DNA from: a virus
Lineage: Duplodnaviria > Caudoviricetes
Length of the DNA: 64,000 nt
Strand: one strand, 5' to 3'
IMG/VR virus record: IMGVR_UViG_3300025073_000989
Under the pieces are notes generated by a model. The model was given only the letters and a program-made list of their open reading frames with translations, was not told the origin of the DNA and ran no database searches. Within the stretch, counting starts at the first letter, position 1. Each line of letters starts with the position of its first letter. Positions 1-28,793 of this stretch are shown here, in pieces. Both the position numbers and the translations under genes were made by a program.

Positions 1-192
1 TTCTAAGTTCTCAAGCTGATATAAGTTTTTAGCTTGTAGAGATTTTTTACATGAAATAGTAACAGCTGCTATAAATCATACAAGAGATCCATACGGCTAT
101 TGGACTAGCGAAAATAGTTCACCAATAGATTTAGAAAAATTAAGATTATTAATTCAAAAGTAAATAAGAAAAACAACGGAGGACTTTAAACT

Positions 193-1107
193 ATGAAAAG
201 ATTTACAATTGGTACTGACCCGGAATTTTTTCTAAAAGAAAAAGAAACCGGAAAATTAGTATCAGCCATACCATATATTAACGGAACAAAGCATGAACCT
301 GAAGCCCTACCATCTGGTGGTACTATTCAAAGGGATAATGTAGCAGTAGAATTTGCAACTGCACCAGCAGTCTCAATGGATGACTTTATAAAAAAGATCA
401 GAGAAACATTCAAAGATGTACTTAAAGTAATTCCAGATAATTTCGATTTAGTAGCAACACCATCTGCTGTATTTGATGATGATCAATTAGAACACCCTGA
501 CGCTTTGACTTTCGGATGTGATCCAGATTATAACGCTTGGACCATTTCCGAAAACTCTGAAAATAATAAACCTAGTCATCCGAACAAAAACTTTAGAAGC
601 TGTGGGGGCCATATACACGTTGGACATGTAAGCGGTGATGGTAACGATTTTCTGCTAGATCCTTTTGGTAAAATTAATATGGTTAGGGGTATGGATCTAG
701 TTCACGGAATAGTATCAGTTATACTAGATAGTTCTATCGAGTCGATAGAAAGAAGAAAGCTGTACGGAAGCGCCGGCTGTCACCGCCCAACAGACTATGG
801 AGTTGAGTATAGAGTTCTAAGTAATTATTGGCTAAAGAGCCCTTTTCTAGTAATGCTTATGGATTCTTTAACACAAGATGTTTTAAAGTTAATTAAAGAA
901 AACAAACTTAATCAACTTATTAATTTTGTTGGTGAACAAGAAATTCAAAGTATTATAAACAATGGAGATGTCGCAAATGCCAATAGTATTTTTAATAAAG
1001 CTATAAAGAGCTGTCTAAGTGCAGATTCTATTTTTTACTTTGAAGAGAGTCTAAAGAGAGTTGAAAATATTAACCTGAAAAAAGAATGGGGACTTGAGGA
1101 GGTCTAA
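193..1107 (+). CDS. phiEco32-like COOH-NH2 ligase (type 2), copy 1
   Basis: Motifs TIGTDPEFFL, DNVAVEF, GCDPDYNAW, RSCGGHIHVG, YGSAGCHRPTDYGVEYRVLSNYW; GGAGG RBS upstream. Confidence 0.85.
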   Translation: MKRFTIGTDPEFFLKEKETGKLVSAIPYINGTKHEPEALPSGGTIQRDNVAVEFATAPAVSMDDFIKKIRETFKDVLKVIPDNFDLVATPSAVFDDDQLEHPDALTFGCDPDYNAWTISENSENNKPSHPNKNFRSCGGHIHVGHVSGDGNDFLLDPFGKINMVRGMDLVHGIVSVILDSSIESIERRKLYGSAGCHRPTDYGVEYRVLSNYWLKSPFLVMLMDSLTQDVLKLIKENKLNQLINFVGEQEIQSIINNGDVANANSIFNKAIKSCLSADSIFYFEESLKRVENINLKKEWGLEEV

Positions 1108-1902: not shown

Positions 1903-1904
1903 AT

Positions 1905-2174
1905 ATGGTAGACACTATAGACGATAATAAACTTAATGCCACAAGATGGAAACTAACTGTTTCTAGAGAGAACGGTACTACAGAACTTGAGCGCCTCGGC
2001 TTATCGCAACTCAAGCCTGTTTTAAAAAGAATAAAAGAACAGAACCCAAATAGTGATGGAGTTAAATTAATAAATACTACATTACTTGTGTTTGCTTACA
2101 TTGAACACTTCCTACAAGAGAGTCCACTTTCTTCACCAGTAGACAGAATACAAATACAACCGCTTGATACATAA
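1905..2174 (+). CDS. Hypothetical protein
   Basis: 89 aa ORF packed between neighbours in the same orientation. Confidence 0.5.
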   Translation: MVDTIDDNKLNATRWKLTVSRENGTTELERLGLSQLKPVLKRIKEQNPNSDGVKLINTTLLVFAYIEHFLQESPLSSPVDRIQIQPLDT

Positions 2175-3630: not shown

Positions 3631-4024
3631 ATTAGAGGACGTCGGTTATATTTTTGTTTATGGTACTTTAAAAGTAGGAGGTACGTTTTCAAAACAGTTT
3701 GACAATTTTAGATTGAAAACCACCCCAGCCTCAATAAAAGGAACGATGTTTTTAGCACCCGGTAACTGGTTTCCAATAGGAATTTTGGGCGGAAACAACA
3801 TCATAAGGGGTGAATTACACAAATACGATTCTTTTACAGAAGTAATTAGAAGTTTAGATAGAATAGAGGGTTACTACGGAGAAAACGAACACAACTTATA
3901 TAATCGCAAACAAACAGCCGTTATAACAGATACAGGTAAGACATATGTTGCTACAGTTTATGAGTTTAACAGGGATGTTAGCAAACTAAAAGTAATTAGA
4001 TCTGGAGAATGGGAAATTAAATAA
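3620..4024 (+). CDS. Gamma-glutamylcyclotransferase (AIG2/YtfP-like)
   Basis: IFVYGTLKVGG, LDRIEGY, YNR motifs. Confidence 0.85.
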   Translation: MKDKLEDVGYIFVYGTLKVGGTFSKQFDNFRLKTTPASIKGTMFLAPGNWFPIGILGGNNIIRGELHKYDSFTEVIRSLDRIEGYYGENEHNLYNRKQTAVITDTGKTYVATVYEFNRDVSKLKVIRSGEWEIK

Positions 4025-4046
4025 TTCCCGATAAGGAGTAATAGAA

Positions 4047-4316
4047 ATGAAAATTAGAAAAATTAGTACTAAAACGGACTACTCATACTCTGTTGGTAAC
4101 ATATCAGATGTAGATGGTTCAGAGTTAGTGGTAGAAAAAATTACACAAGTACGAAAAGGCCGGTATGATATCTACCATGAATATTGGTATTCCGTACATT
4201 TTGCTGATAGTACAGCACACTGTTTAATTCCGGCCTCAGAGATTACTAGTCTTATTTATGACGTAAGTAAAGAAGAAAAGAAAAAGAATGAAGTACCGGA
4301 ATTACCGGAAGAATAA
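4047..4316 (+). CDS. Hypothetical protein
   Basis: 89 aa ORF with AAGGAG RBS. Confidence 0.6.
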   Translation: MKIRKISTKTDYSYSVGNISDVDGSELVVEKITQVRKGRYDIYHEYWYSVHFADSTAHCLIPASEITSLIYDVSKEEKKKNEVPELPEE

Positions 4317-4353
4317 ACCAATTATTAAAATTATAGTAAAACGGAGTTACTGA

Positions 4354-5055
4354 ATGTCAGGAAACAAAATACTTGTTGTAAACGGCTATAGCTATGCTGC
4401 GGCTATTGCTGGATTAGGCGCAGTTACTTTTGATGTAAATGAATTTTATAGTAAACCAGAAGACTTCAAGTTGGTAATGTTTACTGGAGGGGAAGATGTT
4501 TCTCCAGAATTATACGGAGATACTAGTCCACGTAGAGTGTGCCAGAATAGCTGGAAAAGAGATATGGAAGAACTAGATATCTTTAATTCTGCCATTAAAC
4601 ATGGTATAAAAATGACAGGTATATGTAGAGGATCTCAATTTCTAAATGTAATGTCTGGCGGAAAAATGATACACCACCTAAATAATCATGGAGGAGTTAC
4701 GCATGGTTTTGTAAGCCCAAAAAACAGAGAAGTACTACTTGTAAACTCTTTACATCATCAAATGATGATTCCCTCTGAAGAAGGTATTGTAATAGGTTGG
4801 GCAGAAAGAAAATTAGCCACTATATACTTAGGCAACACTGATGAGGTTACTGCGTGGGATGATGTAGAAGTAGAGGCTATTTTCTACCCAAAGACCCTAT
4901 GTTGTGGAGTACAATATCACCCTGAAATAATGAAAAAAGAGTCAGACGGTTATAGATTTTTCCACGAAATGATAGCAGACTTTTTAATGATGACTGCAAA
5001 ACAATTTTCTAGAATATATACTGCAAATGAAAAAACACATCAAGCATATAGGTAG
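4354..5055 (+). CDS. Class I glutamine amidotransferase / peptidase C26, copy 2
   Basis: FTGGEDVSPELYG, GICRGSQ, VNSLHHQM, VQYHPE. Confidence 0.85.
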   Translation: MSGNKILVVNGYSYAAAIAGLGAVTFDVNEFYSKPEDFKLVMFTGGEDVSPELYGDTSPRRVCQNSWKRDMEELDIFNSAIKHGIKMTGICRGSQFLNVMSGGKMIHHLNNHGGVTHGFVSPKNREVLLVNSLHHQMMIPSEEGIVIGWAERKLATIYLGNTDEVTAWDDVEVEAIFYPKTLCCGVQYHPEIMKKESDGYRFFHEMIADFLMMTAKQFSRIYTANEKTHQAYR

Positions 5056-5516: not shown

Positions 5517-6005
5517 ATGTTAGATTTTGAAAAAGTAGTAGGAGAAGAAGTATTTATAGCTACGGAAATCGAAGAAGGTGTCGTAGCTGATATATTTTTA
5601 TTTAGAAATATTTCAGATCTACATAAACACCTTCTAAGTATAAACCTAGATAGTGCTACTATATTACATGGTTATTTAAATCAAGCAAAGTTTTTGCCTA
5701 GTAAGTTAAACAATAGAAGCATTTTTATAATAATCAAAGACGATATAATTGACAATAAAGGTATTATATATGAATTTGAAGAGAATAAAATAGAACTATT
5801 AGAACAAGAAATAGGTGAAATTCTTGATGGAAAAACATGTTTGATGCTAGGATGTACATATGAGCCAGAAATAGAGCAAGTATATATACTTTACGGTTAT
5901 GAAGTGCCACTAAAGCTTACAGTCAGTGAGGCTGATTTAGATGAAGAGGCCATAGAAACCTGTAAAAAACTTTCATCAGAAGTAGATAATTTAAAAATAG
6001 GCTAG
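5517..6005 (+). CDS. Acidic hypothetical protein
   Basis: 162 aa ORF, AAGGA RBS, operonic spacing. Confidence 0.6.
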   Translation: MLDFEKVVGEEVFIATEIEEGVVADIFLFRNISDLHKHLLSINLDSATILHGYLNQAKFLPSKLNNRSIFIIIKDDIIDNKGIIYEFEENKIELLEQEIGEILDGKTCLMLGCTYEPEIEQVYILYGYEVPLKLTVSEADLDEEAIETCKKLSSEVDNLKIG

Positions 6006-6008
6006 CTT

Positions 6009-6404
6009 ATGGGAAAAAAAGTAAGTATTTTATTATCCCAATCCGAAACAAAGTATACTGGTAGACTCCTGGGATTTGTTACTGAAGAAGAGTTTAGATG
6101 TATAATAAGTAGTAACGGCTTGGTCAAAAAAATAAGTACTTCGGAATCTCTGAGTCTAAGAGATCTAATAAAGGCTGATGCTAGAATTAAGGGAAACAGA
6201 TTAGTTTTTTCCATAAATCTAGAAGAAAACAAAGCACAAGAAAAAATCAGTAACACTGTACACTACAATACACTGCTCATTACAGATACAATAGAGGATT
6301 TAACTTATTCAACTATGAGAACGGATTCTACTGAAGCTGGTTTCTCTTTTAGCTCAAACATAGAACAGTGGTTGATAATAGAAGAACCAACTAAACAGGA
6401 CTAG
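6009..6404 (+). CDS. Hypothetical protein
   Basis: 131 aa ORF, operonic spacing. Confidence 0.55.
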   Translation: MGKKVSILLSQSETKYTGRLLGFVTEEEFRCIISSNGLVKKISTSESLSLRDLIKADARIKGNRLVFSINLEENKAQEKISNTVHYNTLLITDTIEDLTYSTMRTDSTEAGFSFSSNIEQWLIIEEPTKQD

Positions 6405-6414
6405 TTTAAACGAT

Positions 6415-7113
6415 ATGGATATAAATACTAAGTATATAAAAAAGAATTTTTTACTACCTTGTACAAAATTTTCTATAGAGAAGATAACGTCAGGAGTTAT
6501 TATACCGGGTTCTATAGGGTTTGTTTGTTTTAATAGTAACAAAGATTTTAATCTATATAGCCTCGATGCAATTATAATAAGACGAGGCAAAAAAGGAAGA
6601 AATAGAGTAGATTGTGTACGAATTAAAAGTCCTGCCTTCTTTTCTGAAGAGACTGATGTTGCTATTGTAAATAATAGTTGTAATATACTACGTATTATTC
6701 CAGAATCCTTTGAAAATAATCACATATTAGCTATGTCAAATATTGAGTATATTGGATGGGCCATTTCTATGGCTAACTTTTTAGCTTTTATATATTCCAC
6801 ATATAGCAGTAAAACAGCTTGGCCGGACGGTCCTATAAATAATTTACATAACATTTCCTCTAAAGAATTAAAGTTGTTGGAGCATGAACCTGATTTGTTT
6901 TTCGAAAAATATTCTACAAGTAAAAGCAGACGTACTTTTATTCAAGCTGCAAGACGAATGTATTGTAGTTTAATGCTTGGTATAAAACGGTATGAAAAGT
7001 GGACAAAAGACATACTACATAATAGCAATCTAGGCTATCTAGCAGCAAATATTGACAAAAAGAATAAAGCACTGCATGCAGAACTTAAACTTCTTGCTGA
7101 GGGGGAAAATTAG
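6415..7113 (+). CDS. Hypothetical protein, paralog of next gene
   Basis: Shares GSIG(F/Y)V and IRxG..G.RV(D/E) N-terminal motifs with 7118-7972. Confidence 0.6.
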   Translation: MDINTKYIKKNFLLPCTKFSIEKITSGVIIPGSIGFVCFNSNKDFNLYSLDAIIIRRGKKGRNRVDCVRIKSPAFFSEETDVAIVNNSCNILRIIPESFENNHILAMSNIEYIGWAISMANFLAFIYSTYSSKTAWPDGPINNLHNISSKELKLLEHEPDLFFEKYSTSKSRRTFIQAARRMYCSLMLGIKRYEKWTKDILHNSNLGYLAANIDKKNKALHAELKLLAEGEN

Positions 7114-7117
7114 AACC

Positions 7118-7972
7118 ATGTATAAAACTGGTAGTAAAATTCAGCTTGTGGCTAGTAATGTCAAAAACATAGGACCAAAAACAGGGAGCATAGGATATGT
7201 AATTGATAGCCATGATATTGTTAGACTATCAACACTTAAAGAAGTAGGCTATGTAGTAAGAATTTATGTTGAATTTATTAGATACGGATTTGAAACAGGT
7301 CAAAGGGTAGAAAAAAGAAATATCTTTCATATAATACCGCTAAATACTGGGATAGATTTTTATACTAGTTTAGTACATAGTCCTGATTTTATAAGCGCGC
7401 TAGAAAGAGTGCTTGATACAAAAGATATTATTTGTTGTGTAGCGGTACCGATAAATAAAAAAACGTATTTTACAAAAGATAAAAATGAAGGTATAAATTG
7501 GTTGAACTCGTTTTTTAGTAGTTACTGTTTTCAGGGACTATTAGAAAATCTTAGCCGACGCGGAAACAAGGATTTTATAAAAAATACAGATATAGAGGAG
7601 CTTTTAAGTTTAGTAGAAAATAAAAACAAAAAAAGTATTATTTTTTCAGAGATAAGGAAAGGTAATTATAGTTTATTGGATTTAATAAGGTCGGTACAAA
7701 AAGTCTCAGCTGTATATGAAAAGAATAAACTAAATCAATCTATACAAAGAGTAGTACAAAGTCCAATGCAATTTCTTAAACCAGGTAGTATATTAACTAC
7801 TATGATACTAAGTAACCTATACTTGCCAGGCTGGCCTGAGATAAAAGAAAAGATTCTAGAAAAAACAAAAGAAACAGAAAGGAGGTTAGAGATATCGGAA
7901 ATCATTAAGCTCCATGAAACAGTTAGAGACAGCTTGGACTCTTTTTCCCGATCCTTAGAAACAAAAGGATAA
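7118..7972 (+). CDS. Hypothetical protein, paralog of previous gene
   Basis: Start moved from the track value 7052 to the ATG at 7118 just after the previous stop; shared N-terminal motifs. Confidence 0.55.
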   Translation: MYKTGSKIQLVASNVKNIGPKTGSIGYVIDSHDIVRLSTLKEVGYVVRIYVEFIRYGFETGQRVEKRNIFHIIPLNTGIDFYTSLVHSPDFISALERVLDTKDIICCVAVPINKKTYFTKDKNEGINWLNSFFSSYCFQGLLENLSRRGNKDFIKNTDIEELLSLVENKNKKSIIFSEIRKGNYSLLDLIRSVQKVSAVYEKNKLNQSIQRVVQSPMQFLKPGSILTTMILSNLYLPGWPEIKEKILEKTKETERRLEISEIIKLHETVRDSLDSFSRSLETKG

Positions 7973-8029: not shown

Positions 8030-11000
8030 ATGTCTTCAGTACAGATTGATCAAAAATTGAAATTTCTCTGCGAAGGAATCAAAAAACAATTTTTTAGTAA
8101 ATCAAGTGTAGATCTGATCAGTAAAAAGAAAGAAGGAAATCTTAGTATTACTTTTGAAAACAACTCTTTATGGATCAATATTTATGATGGAAAAAATAGC
8201 CACAGCATAGCTATACCAATACCATATTTAGACAAAGATTTACAGCTTTTAGTAAAGAACGATGTAGTACGAGCAACTTGCCCGTATTTTGTAGTAGGAC
8301 TTAACCAAGAGTTAGATTATATGGATCTCCTGTATACGGTTATTTGTGGGGATCCGTCATGTATTATTGAGGAGGATATTTTTCAAAGAACGCCCTTTAT
8401 TCAGCAAATTAGCTATTCTATAGAAAATGGTAACACATCATTTATAGCCCTAAAACTACAAAAAGTTATCAACAATATAGTAAATAATTTACCACTGCAC
8501 GAGGGCTCAATGAAGTCTTGGATCATGAACAAACGGCTCATGTTTATAGATCCAACATTTAACGCTTTGATTAACCCGAAAGACAGACTTTCATATCAAG
8601 TAAGCAAAGCTGAAGCGTTTTTTAATAAAGGATGGACACAAATAGGTCTTCCTGATGGTACAATGGTAGATAAAAATTACATGTTGAAGGTAGATTTAAA
8701 GCGCTTTGTTCCTTTTGGAAACCAGTTTCACAACCCAGCTAGAAATTTATACTCTACATTGGGGATGAATGGCGACGAGCTGCCAATGGTTCGTTCTGAG
8801 TCAATGCAGATCCTTATTGATAAAGGTATAAGTAGAACAGGATGGAATTTGTTTACGGTTTTTTATGATATTCCTGATACATGGGAAGATCAAATAATGG
8901 TAGATAGTTCACATGCAACAAAATTTATAACATATACAAAAAGGTACCAATGCTTTGGCACTGTATTAGTAAAAGAAAACGACGATTTAAAACAAGGACA
9001 ACAACTATCAAAAGCAATAGACGGCAACGGTGAGATATTTGATGAATTAGCCGAAGAGGCACATGTATCTAAAATTAATGAAATACTAGTTAATGTTGGT
9101 GGTGTTCCAGTAAAAGGATTTAATGTTATAGTATCTTATAAACGATATCTAAAAGAGGGTGTAAAAATAACCAACCTTTCGGCAAACAAAGGTGTGATAC
9201 GATTAGGGAAGCTAGGTTTTGCTGTAGACCCAAAAACTGGAGAACAACGAAAAATAGATGTAATTGTAGGACTGTCAGCAGTTAAAAAAAGAAAGAATTA
9301 TGCTCAAATATTTGAAGCACTATTAAATGTTGTAAACCAAGAAAGAGTTACAATAGTAGCCGACGATATTAAAAGTACTCTCGGTGATATCAAAAATCGT
9401 CTATTGGCGGAAGGTTTTCCAGAAGACGGTAGTAGGATGTGTCATACATACGCAGGTAATTTTTCTGCACTATGTGGTACTGTTTTCTGGGGAGTTATCC
9501 ATGATGTAGAGAATACAATATGGGACAAAGATACGACGTTTGGGGTAAATGGTAGAGGTTTAAGGACAACTGGCTTAAAGTTTTCTACAGTTGAGTTTAG
9601 AGCGCTAGAAACACGCTTTGGTAAAGATAATCCAGTACTAGCAGAAGTGTTATCTTATTCCCAAGGAACAACCGATTTGACAAATATGTTGGATGTTCTA
9701 AAAAGTAAACTTAATATAATTAAACCAGAAACACCGTGTTTGACTATAGATAATGTTAGAGAGGTTGATCAAACAACGTCAACTATAGTAAACGGAGATA
9801 TACTTTACGGCACTGTTGTAGATGAAATGTTTTATCCTAATGGTTTTGTACTACAACTGCCCTATATTTTTACAACAGCCTTAAACGGGAACAATAAAGT
9901 TGTATATGAAGGCATAAAAAATACTAATGTAAGTGCCCACAAGAAAATTAGTATAGACAAATTATATATTCCATGTGGAAATTTAAGAAAGAGTTGGCGC
10001 CACGGTACAGCTAAGTATGGGTTAAGCGAGATAGGTTCCGCAGTAAATAGAATAGTAATTACATCAAAAAGGTTAATAAAAGAACCAACCTCTAAAAACA
10101 ACATTACTATGTATTACAGCGCAATATCAAACTACTTTAAGCTAATAAGTAGAATACTTGGCACTAAAAATGGAGAGCTAAATAACTACGGTATGGCTGT
10201 AAGATACCCATATTCTGCAAAAGCAGTTGCAACCTTAAGTACAACTTTACCAAAAAACGTAATAGAAATTAATTCATCAGTAGCAAAAAAATTACAAATA
10301 GAAACAGGAGATGTAGTACTAGTAGAAAGATTTCCATGTTTAGGTTTTATGTCGCTTAGGCCACAAAAAATAAAGGTTACAGAAGACGATAAATGCAGAT
10401 ACACGATACGTGTTAGCGGTAATAGTTTAGGTTCTATGGGGTTAGATTTTGATGGTGATGTTATATACATAGCTGCCTTTCATACAGAAGAAGCAAAAGC
10501 ACTTCTAAATAAAGAATGGAAAAATCCCGACAAAACGTGCTATGATATTATTAAAAAATACAACGTTCAAAAAAGTAACCCTAGATTACAGGAAGTTACT
10601 ATTGACAATATTGATATAAAGGGATTTTCTCCGCTAACTATAGAAGAGCAAACAGGTATAGTAGGAGAACTTGCGGGAGTAAAAGCCTTTACTGGACCGG
10701 TAATAGCCTTTTTATACAATTTAATGAGAATTCTTGAAAATTCTAATATAAATAATAAAAAAAGAACGGCCGCCGGTCTAGAAGAAATGTTTACCATAAT
10801 AGGAGAATCAGTTTTTGATTTAAAGCATGGGATCAAATCCCCACATGACGTGTTTGTAGAAGCAATATGTACAGCAGATATAAATACGTTAGTAGAAAAT
10901 GACTTTGATAGAAGTACTTCTACTATTTTATGTAATTTAATAAAACAAAAAGCAAAAGAACTCGGAGTTGTTGATTTAAAAACTTATCATGAAAGGGCTA

Positions 11001-11338
11001 AAGAAACTGGAGGTACAATAGTTGGTAAAATTGTAAGAGAGCAAAATAAAGTATATTTTGCCTCTAGAGCAATACTAGAAGCAAATAGCTTGTTGGAGCA
11101 CTTAAATAGTCCTATAGTAGACATCCCTAGCAGGATATTAAGTTGGACATTGTCTGGCAAAGCAGAGGAAAGGGACACTGCTCTAGATAAAAAGCGACAG
11201 AAAGCACAAATAGAAGAAATTCAAATTGAACCTGTTAAAGACGCCTGTAATATGTTATGTGCATACATAGAAAAATATCTTAATGGGGAAAAAATAGAAA
11301 ACAAATTTAACTATAAAGAAGCGTTTTTTCACAACTAA
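8030..11338 (+). CDS. Single-chain two-barrel RNA polymerase (fused, minimised beta + beta' homolog)
   Basis: Beta-like GVKITNLSANKGV (two Lys 8 apart), KIDVIV..KRKNYAQIFE and GLKFSTVEFRALE; then beta'-like GTKNGELNNYGMAVRYPYSAKAV, VLVERFPCL and GLDFDGDVIY (DxDGD at 10445-10459). Confidence 0.9.
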   Translation: MSSVQIDQKLKFLCEGIKKQFFSKSSVDLISKKKEGNLSITFENNSLWINIYDGKNSHSIAIPIPYLDKDLQLLVKNDVVRATCPYFVVGLNQELDYMDLLYTVICGDPSCIIEEDIFQRTPFIQQISYSIENGNTSFIALKLQKVINNIVNNLPLHEGSMKSWIMNKRLMFIDPTFNALINPKDRLSYQVSKAEAFFNKGWTQIGLPDGTMVDKNYMLKVDLKRFVPFGNQFHNPARNLYSTLGMNGDELPMVRSESMQILIDKGISRTGWNLFTVFYDIPDTWEDQIMVDSSHATKFITYTKRYQCFGTVLVKENDDLKQGQQLSKAIDGNGEIFDELAEEAHVSKINEILVNVGGVPVKGFNVIVSYKRYLKEGVKITNLSANKGVIRLGKLGFAVDPKTGEQRKIDVIVGLSAVKKRKNYAQIFEALLNVVNQERVTIVADDIKSTLGDIKNRLLAEGFPEDGSRMCHTYAGNFSALCGTVFWGVIHDVENTIWDKDTTFGVNGRGLRTTGLKFSTVEFRALETRFGKDNPVLAEVLSYSQGTTDLTNMLDVLKSKLNIIKPETPCLTIDNVREVDQTTSTIVNGDILYGTVVDEMFYPNGFVLQLPYIFTTALNGNNKVVYEGIKNTNVSAHKKISIDKLYIPCGNLRKSWRHGTAKYGLSEIGSAVNRIVITSKRLIKEPTSKNNITMYYSAISNYFKLISRILGTKNGELNNYGMAVRYPYSAKAVATLSTTLPKNVIEINSSVAKKLQIETGDVVLVERFPCLGFMSLRPQKIKVTEDDKCRYTIRVSGNSLGSMGLDFDGDVIYIAAFHTEEAKALLNKEWKNPDKTCYDIIKKYNVQKSNPRLQEVTIDNIDIKGFSPLTIEEQTGIVGELAGVKAFTGPVIAFLYNLMRILENSNINNKKRTAAGLEEMFTIIGESVFDLKHGIKSPHDVFVEAICTADINTLVENDFDRSTSTILCNLIKQKAKELGVVDLKTYHERAKETGGTIVGKIVREQNKVYFASRAILEANSLLEHLNSPIVDIPSRILSWTLSGKAEERDTALDKKRQKAQIEEIQIEPVKDACNMLCAYIEKYLNGEKIENKFNYKEAFFHN

Positions 11339-11350: not shown

Positions 11351-11890
11351 ATGAAAAATATTCAACATGTTACTATTACTACCCCCTCAAACACCACATT
11401 TACTTATAAAGTAAAAGAAACCCTCCTTTGTGTAAACCCTGGGCTTTCTATTAAAACATACAAAGTACTTAAAACAGGAGCGTCTGTAGTTATATACAAA
11501 ATACAAGAATACAACCCATACCATATAACTGTAGTTTTAATAGTAACTAAGCCTCTTCGTTGTGTTGAAGATTACACTAAACCATACAATTTTATAACAT
11601 TGTGTATGAACGTTAATGAGCTTCCCAAAGTGTTTAAAAAAATTAATTCTACAGTAAAAGAAACAAAAGAAGAAACAAAGGATTTAGGACCAAATTACAT
11701 AATTAATAGTAATCTAGAACATAATGGTTTAGCTTTGCTTGGTAAAAAATGTAAAGTACTTACATTTGGAAATTTAGGAACATTAGTTGAGTTTGAAGAA
11801 AATATCAAAGGAAGTAGTGGCGATGGCACAGGTAAAACTGGGCATTGCTTACTAGTAGCACCAGAAACACTAAAAAGAATAAGGGAGTAA
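11351..11890 (+). CDS. Hypothetical protein
   Basis: 179 aa ORF, same strand, operonic. Confidence 0.55.
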   Translation: MKNIQHVTITTPSNTTFTYKVKETLLCVNPGLSIKTYKVLKTGASVVIYKIQEYNPYHITVVLIVTKPLRCVEDYTKPYNFITLCMNVNELPKVFKKINSTVKETKEETKDLGPNYIINSNLEHNGLALLGKKCKVLTFGNLGTLVEFEENIKGSSGDGTGKTGHCLLVAPETLKRIRE

Positions 11891-11895: not shown

Positions 11896-12291
11896 ATGGA
11901 AAAGAAACAGTATAAAGGAATTACGTTTAACGAGTGTAGTTTTATGGGAAAAGTACTTGGGGCACCAAAGTTTGTTCCGGCAGGCGATTCTGAGTATGTT
12001 TTTATTAACCTCTCTGTTCAACAAAGAGAAATGGACGCAAACCAACAATTTGCTGATATTGAAGTAGTTGTACCGCTATTGGTTATGGAGGCCTCTAAAG
12101 TAGAAGTTGTAAAGAAATACGTACAAGAAGGACGCCAGCTGAAGGTAGATGGTTATTACAAAAGTTGGCAAAACGACGGTCGTGCGGGGCATGCCATATT
12201 TGTAACTAAAATACAACTTGGTGATAGGCCATATGTACCAAAAGAGGAACAACAGGCTGCCTCAGCCATGGCTAACCTTCCACCAATGTAA
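11896..12291 (+). CDS. ssb: Single-stranded DNA-binding protein (OB fold)
   Basis: FNECSFMGKVLGAP, GRQLKVDGYYKSW pattern; start placed at the ATG at 11896 after GGGAG. Confidence 0.65.
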   Translation: MEKKQYKGITFNECSFMGKVLGAPKFVPAGDSEYVFINLSVQQREMDANQQFADIEVVVPLLVMEASKVEVVKKYVQEGRQLKVDGYYKSWQNDGRAGHAIFVTKIQLGDRPYVPKEEQQAASAMANLPPM

Positions 12292-12294
12292 TTT

Positions 12295-12416
12295 ATATAA
12301 CGCCTAAATAAGCCGCCGATATGTAGAGCGGTGGCGAAACTACAAGGAGAATTTGAATGAACAAACTTCGCAACAGAACAGAGCTTCTAGCGGCCGGCTT
12401 GATTTTTTTGTTGGGC
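12295..12416 (-). repeat. Integron attC site A1 (minus polarity)
   Basis: Ends ATATAAC...GTTGGGC on +; arms AAAT-AAGCC-GCCG / CGGC-c-GGCTT-g-ATTT with two unpaired bases on the right arm. Confidence 0.8.
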
Positions 12417-12635
12417 GTTTCGGCCTTGGCTGGGTGCACAGACGCAAAAATGAAACAGTTTACAGCCCTTGGGTCGCCAGGAGAGATTGTTTGTTTTTCT
12501 GGCGGTAAAGAAATTTACAAGGGAATTTCAACCGGGAAAATATCTACAGAACAAGGGAGTGACGGATGGTATTTCCAGGAGCAGACCACCGGAAAACTAA
12601 TCCGTGTTTCTGGCGACTGCCTTATTCGGAACTGA
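12357..12635 (+). CDS. Cassette-borne lipoprotein
   Basis: Signal peptide with lipobox LAGC; AAGGAG RBS and ATG lie inside attC A1. Confidence 0.75.
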   Translation: MNKLRNRTELLAAGLIFLLGVSALAGCTDAKMKQFTALGSPGEIVCFSGGKEIYKGISTGKISTEQGSDGWYFQEQTTGKLIRVSGDCLIRN

Positions 12636-12636
12636 C

Positions 12637-12724
12637 GCCCAACGGTATTTTAACCTGCCGCGCCTATGGCTTGGCAGCAAATGCGACCGCGCTGCTCGCG
12701 GTCAGGTTGAAAATTTTGTTATGA
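12637..12724 (-). repeat. Integron attC site A2 (minus polarity)
   Basis: GCCCAAC (complement of GTTGGGC in A1)...GTTATGA; arms ATTTT-AACCTG-CCGCG / CGCGG-t-CAGGTT-g-AAAAT. Confidence 0.85.
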
Positions 12725-12754
12725 TGCGTAAGTTTTATTCCATTTTTTAAAAAG

Positions 12755-13945
12755 GTGAATTGTATGAAACAAGTAATTTCTACGGAACAGAAGCCTATTA
12801 AGTTGTGGTTGGATGATATTGAAGACGGGGCGCTTGCCCAAGCCAAGAACCTTGCCAACCTTCCTTTTATTTTCAAGCACATTGCTATTATGCCCGACTC
12901 GCATCAAGGCTACGGAATGCCTATTGGCGGGGTCATGGCCACACAGGGCGTTGTTGTCCCGAACGCTGTCGGTGTTGATATCGGATGCGGCATGTGCGCC
13001 CTCAAGACTTCCATTGCTACCCTTGACCAAGCAACGCTGAAAAAAATTATGGGCGGCTCGAAGGAATATAAAGGCGGCATAAGAAGTGCTGTGCCAGTCG
13101 GGTTTTCGCACCATTCTAAAAAACAGGACGAGGGATTGATGCCAAGAATTACAACTGGCTTGCCAATTGTTGAGAAAGAATACAGTTCCGCCTTGAAGCA
13201 GATCGGAACCCTTGGCGGAGGCAACCATTTTATTGAGATACAACAAGGCAATGATGGATTTGTGTGGTTGATGATCCATTCCGGCAGCCGGAATATAGGG
13301 TTTAAAGTGGCGCATCATTATAACGATGTGGCTATTTCTCTGAATGAGCGGTGGCGTTCTGCTGTACCGGCAAACTGGCAACTGGCGTTTTTGCCTTTGG
13401 ATAGCGAAGAAGGGCGAAGTTACTTGGCGGAAATGCAATACTGTGTTGATTTTGCGCTTGCCAGCCGGGGGCTTATGATGGAGTTGGTTAAACGTTCTAT
13501 TGTTGAGGTGATTGCAGATGTTACTTTTGGCGATATCATAAACATTGCCCATAACTACGCCACTATGGAGCACCACTTTGGAACAAACGTGATGATTCAC
13601 CGTAAGGGGGCTACAAAAGCCTACCCTGACCAACTTGGCATTATTCCCGGCAGCCAAGGGACTGCAAGCTACATCGTTCGGGGTAAGGGTGAACCTGAAA
13701 GTTTTATGTCTTGTTCTCATGGTGCCGGTCGCAAGATGGGGCGCAAACAAGCCGAGCGAGAACTTGACCTTAATGCCGAGATTGAAAGGCTTGATTCTAT
13801 GGGCGTTATTCATGCAATCCGATACCAGAAAGATTTAGATGAAGCACCAGGGGCTTATAAAGATATTTCTACCGTGATGAGTAACCAAACTGATTTAGTT
13901 GATATTGCAGTGGAACTAAGGCCACTGGCGGTTATTAAGGGGTAG
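12755..13945 (+). CDS. rtcB: RtcB RNA 2',3'-cyclic phosphate/5'-OH ligase, cassette-borne
   Basis: MPDSHQGYGMPIGG, VGVDIGCG, GTLGGGNHFIE, MIHSGSR, IHRKGAT, SCSHGAGR, DEAPGAYKDI; visibly GC-richer than flanks. Confidence 0.95.
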   Translation: MNCMKQVISTEQKPIKLWLDDIEDGALAQAKNLANLPFIFKHIAIMPDSHQGYGMPIGGVMATQGVVVPNAVGVDIGCGMCALKTSIATLDQATLKKIMGGSKEYKGGIRSAVPVGFSHHSKKQDEGLMPRITTGLPIVEKEYSSALKQIGTLGGGNHFIEIQQGNDGFVWLMIHSGSRNIGFKVAHHYNDVAISLNERWRSAVPANWQLAFLPLDSEEGRSYLAEMQYCVDFALASRGLMMELVKRSIVEVIADVTFGDIINIAHNYATMEHHFGTNVMIHRKGATKAYPDQLGIIPGSQGTASYIVRGKGEPESFMSCSHGAGRKMGRKQAERELDLNAEIERLDSMGVIHAIRYQKDLDEAPGAYKDISTVMSNQTDLVDIAVELRPLAVIKG

Positions 13946-13947
13946 CA

Positions 13948-14034
13948 TCATAACGCCAAAATAAGCTGTGCCGCCTATAGCGGTGCAGCAAAAACACCGG
14001 ATTTCCCGGCATCAGCTTAATTTTATTGTTATGC
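13948..14034 (-). repeat. Integron attC site A3 (minus polarity)
   Basis: TCATAAC (complement of GTTATGA in A2)...GTTATGC; arms AAAAT-AAGCTG-TGCCG / CGGCA-t-CAGCTT-a-ATTTT. Confidence 0.85.
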
Positions 14035-15165: not shown

Positions 15166-15737
15166 TGGCTAAAAACAAAAAAGCAAAAAAGAGAGACAAA
15201 AATAGCAGAAAAGTAGCCATTAAACGTTTTATAAGAAATATCTGCGAAGAAAAGTGTAGTCTCTGCGACGTTGTAAATTATCTAGTTGATCTACCACCAG
15301 ACTTTATTTTTTGCTACGACCGAGTATATTTAAATAATACAAAGAAATTTAACTGTGTAGTTTTAAAAAAACTTAGAAAAATAAAAACATGGAACTATAA
15401 TACTTCCATGGACCCAACAGAGGGTGAAATATTAGTATTTACATATTTATTTTGTGATTCAGAAATCTGCAGTAAAGAAATAAAAGTTCTTGATGATAAG
15501 GGAATGTGTCTTAGTATAAAGAACTGTTTAGAGAAATTCAGATTACACGTTATTCCGGATAACTATGCAGTAGAAAACATGTTTCCAGTAGAAGAAGAAA
15601 AAAGTAGAAGAGTAAAAAAGCTGAAAATACAAAAGAAACCTAAAAAAAAAGAACCAACACTGTGTTTCTTTTCAAACATGAATGAGGAGCAACTTAGAGT
15701 GCATCTAGAAAAACTAAATGAAGATAACAATAGCTGA
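15165..15737 (+). CDS. Cys-containing basic hypothetical protein
   Basis: 190 aa ORF overlapping neighbours; CEEKCSLC near the N-terminus. Confidence 0.55.
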   Translation: MAKNKKAKKRDKNSRKVAIKRFIRNICEEKCSLCDVVNYLVDLPPDFIFCYDRVYLNNTKKFNCVVLKKLRKIKTWNYNTSMDPTEGEILVFTYLFCDSEICSKEIKVLDDKGMCLSIKNCLEKFRLHVIPDNYAVENMFPVEEEKSRRVKKLKIQKKPKKKEPTLCFFSNMNEEQLRVHLEKLNEDNNS

Positions 15738-17130
15738 CCAAATAAAACTATACAACGTACCAGAAGTAATCAAAAACGCTCTACTTGCTGAACTACGATT
15801 TGTTAACCCTAAATACACAGAAGCAAAAAAACAAGGGTACTGGACAGGAAATATTGAAAAATATATTACAAATTTTAATATACTCCTAGACGGAGCCATT
15901 CAAATGCCCAGAGGTATGCTAAGCTTTATATTAAAACTAGCAAAAAGTATAGAAGAAGAAATTGAAATAAACGATGAAAGAACCAGATTTTTACAAAACT
16001 TTGAAATTGATTCTTCAAATATAAAACTACGCCCTTACCAAATGAAAGGTATTAGTGACTTAGTAGGAAATGGGGATAATGGTCTACTAGTTTCAAAAGC
16101 TGGTAGTGGAAAAACAATAATGGGGATTTCATTAATACCATTACTGGGTCAACCAACATTGTGGATTACACACACTACACCCCTAATTAATCAGGTATTG
16201 GAACGTATACATCAATTTTTACCAAGCTTAATTAATGATGATTTAGGTTATATTGGTTCTGGAAAGTGGAAAGTTGGTAATGTAGTAACAGTAGCTATGG
16301 TTCAGACTTTAGTAAGAAGTTCGGAAAAATTAAATACACTAAAAAACAGATTTGGTTTAATAGTAGTAGATGAAGTACATCATGCTCCTAGTACTACGTT
16401 TACAACTGTATTAAAACAATTGAATCCTTATTATTTATATGGTCTTACGGCTACTCCTTATAGAAAGGATGGACTAGAAAAACTAATGTTTCAAACTGTG
16501 GGAGAGTTGTGTTCTGTAATACCAATAGAAGAGATAAAAAAAAGCGGTGGTATTTTAACACCAACTGTAATAAAAAGAAGAATAAGTTCTCCTACAACAA
16601 TTTTAACCGATGATTTTCAAAAAATTATAAACGGCTTGGTATATGATAGCTACAGAAATCAAACAATTGCTAACGATGTTTTAATAGAGGCTAGAAATAA
16701 TAACACCTGTATAGTAATCACAGATAGAAAGATTCATGCTGAATTACTATATACAATAATAAAAAAAGGTTGGCCAAAAACCACTATAGCTACCGGTAAC
16801 TATAGTAAAAAATATGTAAGAGAACAAATAGATAAATTAGAAAAAAAAGAAGTAACAGTACTAATAGCCACTGGGGCTTTATTGGGAGAAGGATTCGATT
16901 ATGCTCCGTTAAATAGATGTTTCCTTGGATTACCTTTTAGAAATGTAGTAAAAATTGAACAAATTATAGGTAGAATACAAAGACCAGCAATTGGAAAAAA
17001 AGATGCCATATTGTATGATTACGTAGACGACCATGGTTTATTAAAACATCAATTTTTTAATGAAGGCGTTAAAGGATGCAGATATAATGTTTATAAAAAC
17101 ATCGGAGCAACTATTGTAGAAAAAAAATAA
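15718..17130 (+). CDS. Superfamily 2 DEAD/DEAH helicase
   Basis: LRPYQ, KAGSGKT, VVDEVHH, GLTATPYRKDG, EGFDY, QIIGRIQR. Confidence 0.9.
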   Translation: MKITIADQIKLYNVPEVIKNALLAELRFVNPKYTEAKKQGYWTGNIEKYITNFNILLDGAIQMPRGMLSFILKLAKSIEEEIEINDERTRFLQNFEIDSSNIKLRPYQMKGISDLVGNGDNGLLVSKAGSGKTIMGISLIPLLGQPTLWITHTTPLINQVLERIHQFLPSLINDDLGYIGSGKWKVGNVVTVAMVQTLVRSSEKLNTLKNRFGLIVVDEVHHAPSTTFTTVLKQLNPYYLYGLTATPYRKDGLEKLMFQTVGELCSVIPIEEIKKSGGILTPTVIKRRISSPTTILTDDFQKIINGLVYDSYRNQTIANDVLIEARNNNTCIVITDRKIHAELLYTIIKKGWPKTTIATGNYSKKYVREQIDKLEKKEVTVLIATGALLGEGFDYAPLNRCFLGLPFRNVVKIEQIIGRIQRPAIGKKDAILYDYVDDHGLLKHQFFNEGVKGCRYNVYKNIGATIVEKK

Positions 17131-18325: not shown

Positions 18326-18351
18326 TAACTATTAATAGCAGGAGTAATTTA

Positions 18352-28022: not shown

Positions 28023-28793
28023 ATGATAAATAACGAGTACCAAAGTGATAATAAAAAAGATTTTCCTAGACACTTACTAGGTAACTCAATTGAAGAAGCA
28101 GAAGAAAACTTTAATAAATTTTCTGAACTACTAAATAATATTGCTTACAGTTATTATTCTATAACTGGAATAGACAAAGGAGACTTATTTGCAGAAGCGG
28201 TGTTTGGATTGGCGCGAGCACTGCGGGATTTTGATGATAATAGAAGCAAGGATTTTGTTGTTTATGCTATTTTTATAATAAAAGACGCTTTAAACGAGTA
28301 CGTCAGGAATTATTATCAAATTTCAACACCATCATACCTTAGAAAAGCCGCAAATTTAGTAGAAAAATTAAAAGCAATTTTTACGTCTAATAACATAGAA
28401 ATAGATTGGAATAATTTAGATTATAGTTATATTGAAAACAGTTTACCAGACAGTCAGAGTATTCTCTGTAAGGAGCTATTAGCTAAATTAAATAATTATG
28501 CGGATAGAGCAAAAATAAAAGTTTCTGAGTTAATAACAAGAATACAGTTAATACCTAGGAGCTTTGATTATGAACACAAGCACAACGAGATTGATCTTAA
28601 TGAAAAAACAAATAACTCAATACTAGTAAAACAACTACTTGAGCAAATGTCTGTAGACGAGAAAAAAGTTGCAATTGGCATAATGCAGGATAAAACTTAC
28701 CAAGAAATAGGAAAAACTTTAGGAAAATCTAATGCATGGGTATCAGATAAAATAAAAACTATGCAGAAAAAGTTCAAAAGAGACTGCTTGTAA
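28023..28793 (+). CDS. Sigma70-family sigma factor
   Basis: Region 2 DLFAEAVFGLARALRDFD..FVVYAIFII; region 4 HTH TYQEIGKTLGKSNAWVS. Confidence 0.8.
   Translation: MINNEYQSDNKKDFPRHLLGNSIEEAEENFNKFSELLNNIAYSYYSITGIDKGDLFAEAVFGLARALRDFDDNRSKDFVVYAIFIIKDALNEYVRNYYQISTPSYLRKAANLVEKLKAIFTSNNIEIDWNNLDYSYIENSLPDSQSILCKELLAKLNNYADRAKIKVSELITRIQLIPRSFDYEHKHNEIDLNEKTNNSILVKQLLEQMSVDEKKVAIGIMQDKTYQEIGKTLGKSNAWVSDKIKTMQKKFKRDCL

What the first reader, a model, noticed from the sequence alone, without database searches (positions are those of the whole stretch)
8030..11338. Single-polypeptide, minimised beta-beta' RNA polymerase
One 1102-aa ORF carries, in order, the beta catalytic-barrel motifs (GVKITNLSANKGV with Lys379/Lys387 spaced as in GDKxxGRHGNKG; KRKNYAQIFE like SRMNIGQILE; GLKFSTVEFRALE like GQRFGEMEVWALE) and then beta' motifs (GTKNG..RYPYSAKAV like KGKQG..RVDYSGRSV; ERFPCL like NRAPTL; GLDFDGD like NADFDGD). 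Cellular beta plus beta' is more than twice this length. Single-chain two-barrel enzymes are known (SPbeta YonO, crAss-like virion polymerase), but here similarity to the cellular subunits is readable by eye, including the beta C-terminal/beta' junction. That suggests a separate fusion-and-reduction lineage.
Basis: partly seen in the sequence, partly recalled or inferred. Interest (0 to 1): 0.8.

Follow-up and report, generated by a model that had tools for sequence, protein, structure and literature searches.

The report
Single-chain mini RNA polymerase, jumbo phage
One 1102-residue gene of an uncultured ~270-kb groundwater phage joins cut-down versions of both catalytic subunits of cellular RNA polymerase; it belongs to a widespread, unnamed phage family that always travels with a second polymerase fused to the tail tape-measure protein.

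Summary

- **Structure.** A confident model (pLDDT 86) shows residues 1-546 folding like beta/Rpb2. This half includes the 'ED' carboxylates, an SBHM 'flap' inserted in the barrel and the two lysines. Residues 548-1040 fold like beta'/Rpb1, with a clamp, RxP and DFDGD.
- **Lineage.** It is a cell-type enzyme, not a YonO, QDE-1 or crAss-type one; a profile comparison with YonO finds nothing.
- **Closest named protein.** This is the yeast killer-plasmid polymerase K2ORF6p, also a beta::beta' fusion, but that one lacks the clamp and needs a second subunit.
- **Family.** It has at least 370 clusters at 90% identity, all labelled 'hypothetical', on phage contigs up to 330 kb. I found no paper describing it. 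This scan met the same family before on other DNA.

- All four related large genome records examined also carry a giant (3,300-7,500 aa) ORF with an RNA polymerase core, echoing Thermus phage P23-45.
- A sigma factor sits 14-20 kb downstream in 8 of 11 records.
- Divergent relatives encode the enzyme as two overlapping genes.

The most likely role is the phage's intracellular (non-virion) transcriptase. The timing of its action and its start factor are untested.

The parts
8030..11338 (+). Whole gene: 1102-aa single-chain beta::beta' RNA polymerase (P0001)
   Evidence: ORF and translation; Pfam Rpb2_6 then Rpb1_2; AlphaFold model pLDDT 86, pTM 0.82
8030..9667 (+). Beta/Rpb2-like half (residues 1-546), including an N-terminal beta1/protrusion-like domain (about 1-220)
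   Evidence: VIA-align: plastid, ASFV, Pol IV and Xanthomonas beta/Rpb2 chains at Z 19-20 with 358-495 residues aligned over model 1..546; Mtb beta B1/B2 domains Z 6.0 over 1..151
8885..8890 (+). E286-D287, equivalent to the beta 'ED' pair (Rpb2 E836/D837) that holds Mg-B
   Evidence: Invariant in 30 sequences. Context WEDQIMV resembles beta FEDSILV, read by eye. The same motif aligns with FEDQ of the tape-measure-fused polymerase
8924..9148 (+). SBHM 'flap' domain (residues about 299-373) inserted in the beta barrel; no tip helix predicted
   Evidence: Matches the E. coli beta flap (3tbi_B, Z 7.7, 71 aa, rmsd 2.5), the Thermus beta flap (3woe_A, Z 7.1) and other SBHM domains. DSSP shows strands only and pLDDT is 87-96
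9164..9190 (+). K379 and K387, the two catalytic-barrel lysines, with the same 8-residue spacing as Rpb2 K979/K987
   Evidence: Invariant; aligned to GDK..GRHGNKG of bacterial beta by HMMER
9572..9607 (+). GLKFSTVEFRAL, the beta C-terminal motif. In two-gene relatives the split lies just upstream of it
   Evidence: G515, L516, K517, S519 and E522 invariant; split relatives
9671..10183 (+). Clamp module (residues 548-718), including a helical hairpin at 667-710 in the position of the beta' clamp coiled-coil
   Evidence: C-terminal-half model, residues 1..171, matches the archaeal RNAP clamp bound to Spt4/5 (3qqc_A, Z 8.4, 129 aa, rmsd 2.6). Helices H667-684 and H689-710
10160..10459 (+). Beta' catalytic barrel: switch-2-like GTKNG..RYPYSAKAV, ERFPCL (R767, P769) and DFDGD (D806, D808, D810)
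   Evidence: Pfam Rpb1_2; all invariant; DPBB folds Z 7-10.9 over about 726-830
10640..10909 (+). Bridge-helix-like 33-residue helix (871-903) and a trigger-loop-like region with invariant K932-H933-G934
   Evidence: DSSP. Largest-subunit chains align through model residue 1040. Assigned by structure and position only: a sequence profile of 862-1045 finds no RNAP in the PDB
28023..28793 (+). Sigma-70-family factor (256 aa, regions 2 and 4): candidate start factor for this enzyme or for the host enzyme
   Evidence: Pfam Sigma70_r2 E 4.6e-7; region 4 in 3 of 5 homologues; found 14-20 kb downstream on the same strand in 7 of 10 related records
15718..17130 (+). SF2 (ResIII/DEAD) helicase conserved a few kb downstream of the polymerase gene in all 12 related loci: possible transcription partner (inferred)
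   Evidence: Pfam; tblastn E 1e-64 to 1e-158 in L001-L012; phrog_16

Best explanation
The gene encodes an active DNA-dependent RNA polymerase of an uncultured jumbo phage. It is a single 125-kDa chain in which a pruned beta subunit (residues 1-546) is joined by a short linker of about 15 residues to a pruned beta' subunit (about 560-1085). Catalysis should follow the usual two-barrel, two-metal mechanism. D806, D808 and D810 of the beta' barrel, with E286 and D287 of the beta side, hold the Mg ions. K379 and K387 contact the phosphates, and R767 contacts the incoming nucleotide. A clamp, a bridge-like helix and a trigger-like loop surround the site. The fold and the invariant residues are shown here; the activity is inferred. 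Its most likely role is the phage's intracellular (non-virion) transcriptase. It would be made early from a replication and RNA-metabolism gene block and would act after a second polymerase, fused to the giant tape-measure protein, has been injected and has started transcription. This is the scheme shown for Thermus phage P23-45, and here it is an inference from gene context. How it finds promoters is open. The phage's conserved sigma factor is one candidate (about one chance in three). An unaided or otherwise assisted enzyme, with sigma redirecting the host polymerase to late genes, is the other.
For: - Catalytic residues. All eight residues invariant in two-barrel RNAPs (list from PMC2919709) are invariant here, and so is the fifth carboxylate typical of DNA-dependent enzymes.
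- Fold of the whole chain. The model is confident (pLDDT 86, pTM 0.82). The N-terminal half matches beta/Rpb2 at Z 16-20, including AR9 nvRNAP beta at Z 19.2 with rmsd 3.5 over 268 aa. An SBHM flap sits at 300-372.
- Fold of the C-terminal half alone. It matches archaeal, eukaryotic, viral and bacterial largest subunits at Z 9-12 over 360-410 residues that span the whole target chain. Its clamp matches at Z 8.4.
- Selection. Full-length homologues at 37-51% identity occur in 12 IMG/VR phage contigs and in at least 370 90%-identity clusters.
- Phage context. The window holds tail fibre, NAD salvage, RNA ligase and RtcB genes.
- Conserved gene order. SSB and an SF2 helicase lie downstream; no virion genes are adjacent.
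- Second polymerase. Giant ORFs of 4651, 4562, 7488 and at least 3325 aa with an RNAP core occur in all four related large genome records.
- Precedent. P23-45 has a two-polymerase programme (PMC10770324).
Against: - No activity, expression or virion data exist for any member.
- The tape-measure-fused polymerase of this very genome lies outside the window and I could not fetch it. Its presence here rests on an earlier unchecked note plus my check in relatives.
- The non-virion role is argued from gene neighbourhood only. Phage Arash packages its beta, beta', sigma and helicase in virions (PMC10585845), so packaging of this enzyme is not excluded.
- The bridge helix and trigger loop are assigned by position in a predicted structure; a sequence profile of that region finds no polymerase.
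- Against a sigma partnership: the flap has no predicted tip helix, which is where sigma region 4 docks on bacterial beta. An earlier scan note on another sigma-coupled mini polymerase reports that sigma docked better on the ordinary enzyme (not tested here).
- No shared promoter motif was found.
Confidence: 0.75

Rival explanations
1. It is a virion-packaged early polymerase, injected with the DNA like crAss-like gp66, N4 vRNAP or the Arash enzyme, rather than an intracellular one.
For: Phage Arash packages its bacterial-type beta, beta', sigma and a helicase in virions (PMC10585845). The same trio of gene types (polymerase, helicase, sigma) is conserved in this clade.
Against: The lineage already has a polymerase built into the ejected tape-measure protein, which makes a second injected enzyme less necessary. 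The gene sits among SSB, helicase and RNA-repair genes, far from the tail-fibre block on the other strand. The model has a full crab-claw with a clamp, unlike the flat, clamp-less P23-45 virion enzyme.
Confidence: 0.15
2. It is a member by descent of the yeast killer-plasmid polymerase family (K2ORF6p): one ancient fusion shared by phages and cytoplasmic linear plasmids.
For: K2ORF6p (P05472) is by far the best Swiss-Prot structural match: E 9.6e-23 against about 1e-12 for bacterial beta. The match covers query 34-896 and hit 85-981. Both are beta-then-beta' fusions of about 1000 aa.
Against: Identity is 11% and TM only 0.36-0.40. The high score may simply reflect that both halves lie in one target chain. 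The pruning differs. K2ORF6p keeps nearly all of beta, loses most of the clamp, lid, rudder and rim helices, and needs K2ORF7p for the beta' C-terminus (PMC6211774). This enzyme keeps a clamp and the C-terminus in the same chain. Sykora et al. place the plasmid enzyme near poxviruses.
Confidence: 0.07
3. It is a YonO/QDE-1-type single-subunit two-barrel polymerase (the phage, plasmid and RNAi clade) that only looks cellular by convergence at a few motifs.
For: QDE-1 and RDR2 align over both halves at Z 12.5 and 11.9. Single-chain organisation is typical of that clade.
Against: A profile comparison with YonO finds nothing (probability 0.2%). The enzyme has the SBHM insert and the fifth carboxylate, which that clade lacks according to PMC7824862 and PMC2919709. 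Each half scores higher against cellular subunits. With the C-terminal half alone, no QDE-1, gp62 or gp66 row appears in the top 50.
Confidence: 0.03
4. It is not a transcriptase. It could be a replication primer-maker, an RNA-templated polymerase or an inactive scaffold that sits in the replication module.
For: It is immediately followed by SSB and lies near a helicase and a clamp-loader-like ATPase. Two-barrel enzymes can use RNA templates (QDE-1) or make DNA (PolD).
Against: All catalytic residues are invariant, so it is not a dead scaffold. The architecture is that of DNA-dependent transcriptases, with clamp, flap and ED pair. No PolD-specific elements were found.
Confidence: 0.05

Closest known systems
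Yeast cytoplasmic linear ('killer') plasmid RNA polymerase, K2ORF6p (P05472) with small subunit K2ORF7p (Sykora et al. 2018, PMC6211774)
   Same: A cell-type beta-then-beta' fusion of about 1000 residues with shortened spacers. It is the best whole-chain structural match among Swiss-Prot models (E 9.6e-23). It associates with an SF2 helicase, and a helicase gene is conserved beside this gene as well.
   Different: 11% identity. The plasmid enzyme keeps almost all of beta, lacks most of the clamp (coiled-coil, lid, rudder) and the rim helices, and has the beta' C-terminus on a separate subunit. This enzyme prunes beta to about 545 residues, keeps a clamp and has everything in one chain. Its host is a tailed phage of prokaryotes, not a eukaryotic plasmid with a capping enzyme.
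Thermus phage P23-45 pair: gp96 tape-measure-fused virion RNAP and gp64 non-virion RNAP (Chaban et al. 2024, PMC10770324)
   Same: The genome logic is the same: a giant tape-measure ORF carrying a polymerase, plus a separate compact single-chain polymerase with a clamp. The beta cores of the two polymerases of one phage are detectably related (hhalign 95.5%, E 1.4e-8).
   Different: P23-45 enzymes belong to the divergent single-subunit clade and show almost no sequence similarity to cellular RNAP. Structural matches are weak: P74 gp62 Z 8.9 and gp96 Z 8.2-9.6. This enzyme is cell-type. A tree does not resolve whether this lineage's two polymerases are sister paralogues.
Multisubunit RNAPs of jumbo phages (AR9 and phiKZ non-virion RNAP; PDB 7S00, 7OGP)
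   Same: They give the best local structural match of the beta barrel module: AR9 chain C at Z 19.2, rmsd 3.5, 268 aa, 16% identity, and phiKZ at Z 16.4. There are weak PHROG hits to their 'RNAP beta subunit' families. These are jumbo phages with two polymerases and a co-occurring SF2 helicase (PMC7824862).
   Different: Those enzymes are split into four or five polypeptides and have no sigma gene in the genome. This one is a single chain in a genome with a sigma factor.
SPbeta YonO and crAss-like phi14:2 gp66 (single-chain two-barrel RNAPs)
   Same: One polypeptide with both barrels, encoded by a phage.
   Different: No sequence relation to YonO; gp66 scores Z 7.0. Per PMC7824862 and PMC2919709, those enzymes lack the SBHM flap and the fifth carboxylate, both of which are present here.
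Bacterial RNAP core beta + beta', including natural beta::beta' fusions such as Helicobacter (named in PMC2919709)
   Same: Same order of conserved blocks, the same catalytic residues, and a flap and clamp.
   Different: It has about 40% of the combined length. No alpha or omega gene was seen in the window, and most lineage-specific and peripheral domains are absent.

Membership tests
Two-barrel (double-psi beta-barrel) RNA polymerase superfamily | Eight invariant residues: three Asp of DxDxD, one Asp and two Lys of the second barrel, and Arg and Pro before DxDxD (PMC2919709) | tested here: met
   D806, D808, D810, D287, K379, K387, R767 and P769 are invariant in 30 sequences; residue list
Two-barrel (double-psi beta-barrel) RNA polymerase superfamily | Two DPBB folds forming the active site | tested here: met
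   Residues 726-830 match DPBB domains (Z 7-10.9). The beta barrel lies within beta/Rpb2 alignments at Z 16-20. This is a predicted structure only
Cell-type (multisubunit-derived) clade of two-barrel RNAPs | SBHM ('flap') domain inserted in the beta-side barrel (PMC7824862) | tested here: met
   Residues 300-372 match the E. coli and Thermus beta flaps (Z 7.7 and 7.1) and other SBHM domains. They sit between the ED pair and the two lysines
Cell-type (multisubunit-derived) clade of two-barrel RNAPs | Fifth carboxylate next to the beta-side Asp (Rpb2 E836), absent in YonO and QDE-1 (PMC2919709) | tested here: met
   E286 is invariant and directly precedes D287
Cell-type (multisubunit-derived) clade of two-barrel RNAPs | Beta'-type clamp with coiled-coil, bridge helix and trigger loop | tested here: inconclusive
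   The clamp is met at fold level (3qqc_A Z 8.4) and there is a helical hairpin at 667-710. The bridge helix and trigger loop are placed by position only, and a profile of 862-1045 finds no RNAP
YonO-like / QDE-1-like single-subunit RNAPs | Detectable sequence relation to YonO | tested here: not met
   hhalign of the family profile against SPbeta YonO: probability 0.2%, 17 columns
YonO-like / QDE-1-like single-subunit RNAPs | No SBHM insert and no fifth carboxylate | tested here: not met
   Both are present here
Killer-plasmid RNAP (K2ORF6p/K2ORF7p) | Beta and beta' conserved regions fused in one chain of about 1000 aa | tested here: met
   the top Swiss-Prot structural hit is P05472
Killer-plasmid RNAP (K2ORF6p/K2ORF7p) | Clamp almost absent and beta' C-terminus on a separate small subunit (PMC6211774) | tested here: not met
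   A clamp domain is present and the chain aligns to largest subunits up to their C-terminal regions. Family definition
Killer-plasmid RNAP (K2ORF6p/K2ORF7p) | Sequence-level kinship closer than to other cell-type RNAPs | not tested
P23-45-type two-polymerase system (tape-measure-fused vRNAP plus compact nvRNAP) | A tape-measure-sized ORF with an RNAP core in the same genome | tested here: inconclusive
Met in all four related large genome records.
P23-45-type two-polymerase system (tape-measure-fused vRNAP plus compact nvRNAP) | Homology of the compact enzyme to gp64/gp62 | tested here: inconclusive
   P74 gp62 scores Z 8.9 with 390 aa at rmsd 4.4, below the cellular subunits. It works like the family, but membership is not shown
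phiKZ/AR9-type jumbo-phage RNAP | Beta and beta' each split into two or more polypeptides | tested here: not met
   Single ORF

The most novel reading that the evidence does not exclude
The 1102-residue chain and the phage's 256-residue sigma factor together form a complete, promoter-specific, bacterial-type holoenzyme made of only two polypeptides (about 155 kDa). It would be the smallest sigma-dependent transcription machine known. In this reading it acts as the second stage of a polymerase relay that starts with the tape-measure-fused enzyme.
Probability: 0.3. Interest if true: 0.8.

Novelty: new variant of a known kind. Interest (0 to 1): 0.62.

Why it matters
- **A minimal cell-type polymerase.** At about 40% of the mass of beta plus beta', this is a natural minimal version of the cell-type RNA polymerase that still keeps the flap, the clamp and all catalytic residues. 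It shows which parts of the universal enzyme can be dropped. A single-chain, likely rifampicin-insensitive enzyme is also an attractive subject for structural work and for orthogonal gene expression.
- **Recurrent fusion and pruning.** Fusion and pruning of beta and beta' now appear in killer plasmids, in this phage family, and in other metagenomic lineages of about 1000, 1560 and 2000-2300 residues. At least one clade has two overlapping genes again.
- **A wider two-polymerase strategy.** The constant pairing with a tape-measure-fused polymerase extends a strategy known from one Thermus phage group to a large clade of uncultured jumbo phages.

Tried and rejected
- tblastn of the protein against 50,697 GenBank phage records found nothing, so no cultured or deposited phage in that set has it.
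- The first scan of IMG/VR with single-sequence patterns found nothing. The alignment-based scan worked.
- No whole genome is held for the window. The only contig returned by exact look-up was 84 kb, too short to reach the tape-measure gene.
Sigma binding and expression were therefore not tested.
- Promoter hunt: 9-mers shared among 26 intergenic stretches of the window and a comparison of the 110 nt upstream of the gene in 12 relatives gave no conserved motif, only strong GGAGG-type ribosome sites.
- A sequence profile of residues 862-1045 (bridge-helix and trigger-loop region) found no polymerase in the PDB.
- Pfam and PHROGs found nothing for the conserved neighbours at 5517-7972 and 11351-11890. 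I cannot say whether they are accessory subunits.
- Sister relationship of this family with the tape-measure polymerases: the beta-core tree leaves the three main clades unresolved (support 45). A within-phage duplication, as proposed for P23-45, is neither supported nor excluded.
- QDE-1, gp62 and gp66 did not appear among the top 50 rows for the C-terminal half. This is absence from a list, not proof of a different fold.


Full report
**Observation.** The window holds one uninterrupted ORF at 8030..11338 on the + strand. It encodes 1102 residues (P0001) and follows a GGAGG ribosome-binding site.

- Pfam finds RNA_pol_Rpb2_6 at 361-473 (E 0.005, below the cut-off) and RNA_pol_Rpb1_2 at 742-824 (E 1.6e-5, above the cut-off), in that order.
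- PHROGs gives weak hits to two 'RNA polymerase beta subunit' families.
- The single sequence barely reaches solved structures. A profile of 30 homologues reaches bacterial beta chains at E about 1e-4, then AR9 beta' (0.008) and the P23-45 tape-measure polymerase (0.03-0.04).

**Family.** A word-indexed search returns 370 clusters at 90% identity. Nearly all are 1,090-1,240 residues long, 45-51% identical over 97-100% of the query, and either unnamed or labelled 'hypothetical'. They sit on contigs up to 330 kb. Two NCBI members are binned as a Patescibacteria and a Thermococci MAG.

An exhaustive profile search of 1.84 billion representatives gives 257 hits at E<=0.001 and 72 at E<=1e-30. About 25 of these are full-length 50%-identity clusters. 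No deposited phage genome has the gene. IMG/VR holds 12 full-length relatives at 37-49% identity on contigs of 45-298 kb, one of them complete with terminal repeats.

The window itself is clearly phage. It has tail-fibre proteins, NAD-salvage enzymes, RNA ligases, RtcB, a ClpB-like ATPase and many COOH-NH2 ligase and amidotransferase genes. The identical protein occurs on at least 24 contigs; the one shown comes from a groundwater metagenome.

**Conservation.** In 30 sequences the following are invariant:
- E286 and D287, in a WEDQIMV context like beta FEDSILV.
- K379 and K387.
- K420, R421, N423, Q426 and E429.
- G515, L516, K517, S519 and E522.
- R725 and P727.
- E766 through G772 (ERFPCLG).
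- D806, D808, G809 and D810.
- K932, H933 and G934.

The set includes the eight residues that Ruprich-Robert and Thuriaux list as invariant in all two-barrel polymerases. It also includes the extra carboxylate (Rpb2 E836) that they say YonO and QDE-1 lack.

**Structure of the whole chain.** AlphaFold2 with the family alignment gives pLDDT 86 and pTM 0.82. Foldseek against the PDB returns only second-largest RNAP subunits. The exhaustive VIA-align search divides the chain cleanly.

- Residues 1-546 align to plastid, ASFV, Pol IV, Pol I and Xanthomonas beta/Rpb2 at Z 19-20 with 358-495 residues aligned.
- The barrel module aligns to AR9 nvRNAP beta at Z 19.2 (rmsd 3.5, 268 aa) and to phiKZ at Z 16.4.
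- Residues 300-372 match isolated E. coli and Thermus beta-flap domains (Z 7.7 and 7.1) and other SBHM domains.
- Residues 560-1040 align to archaeal A', Pol I/II largest subunits and Mtb beta' at Z 10.4-11.5, with about 400 residues reaching the targets' C-terminal regions.
- Single-chain polymerases score lower: QDE-1 12.5 and RDR2 11.9 (over both halves together), P74 gp62 8.9, P23-45 gp96 8.2 and crAss gp66 7.0.

**Structure of the C-terminal half.** Folding residues 548-1085 alone gives pLDDT 80. The search again returns largest subunits of cellular and viral RNAPs (Z 9-12). The archaeal clamp bound to Spt4/5 matches the first 171 residues (Z 8.4, 129 aa, rmsd 2.6).

So the junction lies at about residues 546-560. 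The enzyme keeps a flap-type SBHM and a clamp with a helical hairpin (667-710) just before the switch-2-like GTKNG..RYPYSAKAV.

A 33-residue helix (871-903) and a following loop with invariant KHG occupy the positions of the bridge helix and trigger loop. This assignment is by position only: a sequence profile of 862-1045 finds no polymerase in the PDB.

**Which lineage.** Iyer et al. use the SBHM insert in the beta barrel to separate cellular, killer-plasmid and jumbo-phage enzymes from the RdRP/YonO group. [quoted passage not shown] This protein has the SBHM insert and the ED pair. A profile comparison with SPbeta YonO (fetched) finds nothing. It therefore belongs with the first clade.

Among Swiss-Prot AlphaFold models the top hit is the killer-plasmid polymerase K2ORF6p (P05472). 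It scores E 9.6e-23 over query 34-896 and hit 85-981, at 11% identity. That is ten orders of magnitude ahead of bacterial beta, and YonO is not in the top 30.

Sykora et al. describe K2ORF6p as nearly complete beta plus a stub of beta'. It lacks the clamp coiled-coil, lid, rudder and rim helices, and is completed by the separate K2ORF7p. The pruning here is different: a shorter beta, a retained clamp and no second subunit evident.

**Tree of the beta core.** I built a tree from 43 sequences and 349 columns using the quick method.
- This family forms its own group (SH-aLRT 94).
- The tape-measure-type giants form a second group (98).
- A third group (95) holds cell-type sequences, split beta-like phage subunits and three other fused mini-polymerases (P0257, P0270, P0263).
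- The order of the three groups is unresolved.

The tree supports a lineage separate from the other fused forms. It does not show from what this lineage arose.

**Other fused forms seen.** All of the following are unnamed.
- P0257 and P0270 (about 1000 aa) and P0243 (1561 aa) have strong Pfam beta and beta' domains in one chain.
- P0228, of 2278 aa, carries both barrels in one chain; further 1,900-2,300-aa proteins hit the family profile but were not checked for both.

Earlier notes of this scan describe several such families, and this very family, on other DNA.

**Two-gene relatives.** Two divergent relatives from different samples encode the enzyme as two genes. These are L029 (506 aa plus a following ORF) and L030 (an end-cut ORF plus 537 aa). 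The genes overlap by 14-16 nt, and a GGAGG-type site precedes the second start.

The two contigs are only about 33% identical to each other, so the split is conserved and not a sequencing error. It lies just before the equivalent of GLKFSTVEFRAL. That is about 35 residues upstream of the cellular beta/beta' boundary, which suggests a secondary fission of a fused gene. One of the two nests inside the family in the tree, but on a long branch.

**Genome logic.**
- Gene order around the polymerase gene is conserved. Three unknown genes lie upstream in the closer relatives. SSB lies directly downstream in eight loci and an SF2 helicase a few kb downstream in all twelve.
I could not fetch that stretch. 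In all four related large genome records I did find giant ORFs of 4651, 4562, 7488 and at least 3325 aa related to one another in their polymerase part.
- The G003 giant ORF aligns to this family's beta core at 95.5% probability (E 1.4e-8), with FEDQ and the two lysines. It also carries NLDFDGD.
- This mirrors P23-45. There the tape-measure-fused gp96 transcribes pre-early genes, including that of the clamp-bearing non-virion gp64, and the host enzyme does late genes.

**Sigma factor.** The sigma factor at 28023-28793 has region 2, and its homologues also have region 4. It lies 14-20 kb downstream on the same strand in 7 of 10 related records. In the records where its neighbours were read it lies between a RuvB-like ATPase and a nucleotidyltransferase-like gene.

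Whether it serves this enzyme or the host's is open.
- For a partnership: clamp and flap modules are retained, and phage Arash is a precedent, with its own beta, beta', sigma and helicase all found in virions.
- Against a partnership: the flap has no predicted tip helix, and phage sigmas usually redirect host core (established knowledge of T4 gp55 and SPO1 gp28).

**Verdict.** The enzyme is a new, widespread variant of a known kind: a cell-type two-barrel RNA polymerase reduced to one chain. Its closest analogue in concept is the killer-plasmid enzyme, and its closest analogue in genome logic is P23-45. I found no description of it in four literature searches or in the papers read. Activity, timing and promoter recognition remain to be tested.

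Noticed in passing
L029:281-2169 and L030:1-2356: Divergent relatives of this polymerase are encoded as two overlapping genes (14-16 nt overlap, with a Shine-Dalgarno site before the second start). The split is about 35 residues upstream of the cellular beta/beta' boundary, and it is conserved in two samples that are only about 33% identical. This looks like a secondary fission of a fused gene.
   Followed up: partly
proteins P0257, P0270, P0263 (about 900-1020 aa), P0243 (1561 aa), P0228 (2278 aa): Other unnamed metagenomic proteins carry Pfam beta and beta' domains in one chain, some with much stronger similarity to cellular RNAP (E 1e-31 to 1e-50). Fused RNA polymerases seem to exist in several sizes and lineages. 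Their genomic contexts were not examined.
   Followed up: partly
G003:C1:259913-264712 (L021, L032); G004:C1:169221-174029; G002:C1:187273-187635; G001:C1:2410-2787: Every related large genome record has a giant ORF (3,300-7,500 aa) with an RNA polymerase core. In the G003 ORF the core runs from FEDQ to NLDFDGD, between residues about 570 and 1390. This is the presumed tape-measure-fused virion polymerase.
   Followed up: partly
window 193-5055 and 17183-25821: There is an unusually large set of phiEco32-type COOH-NH2 ligases, glutamine amidotransferases and ATP-grasp (RimK-like) genes, at least eight in all, around the polymerase block. This suggests an elaborate peptide or amide-bond modification system.
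   Followed up: no
window 12000-14000: G+C jumps to 46%, against about 32% elsewhere, at the RtcB gene (12755-13945). Earlier notes of the scan read this stretch as an integron-like cassette array, so it looks like recently acquired DNA.
   Followed up: no
window 38249-40740 and 51579-52541: A complete NAD-salvage set is present: nicotinamide phosphoribosyltransferase, an NMN adenylyltransferase/NUDIX fusion and PRPP synthetase. It may counter NAD-depleting defences.
   Followed up: no
window 55302-56561 (-): A transposase of the phrog_506 type (E 7e-100) sits inside the phage's minus-strand block, next to a DNA methyltransferase (54260-55246).
   Followed up: no
G002:C1:23349-26600 (L014): The homologue in this 228-kb record shows one in-frame TAA inside the match, and no sigma factor was found in that record. 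This may be a sequencing error, a broken gene or a recoded stop.
   Followed up: no
L013:7825-11011 (G005, 231,647 bp): A more distant jumbo phage has adjacent 508-aa and 556-aa ORFs. The second is a stand-alone beta-barrel subunit (28% identity to residues 227-490), and there is no fused gene or sigma. This appears to be a split, phiKZ-like arrangement.
   Followed up: partly
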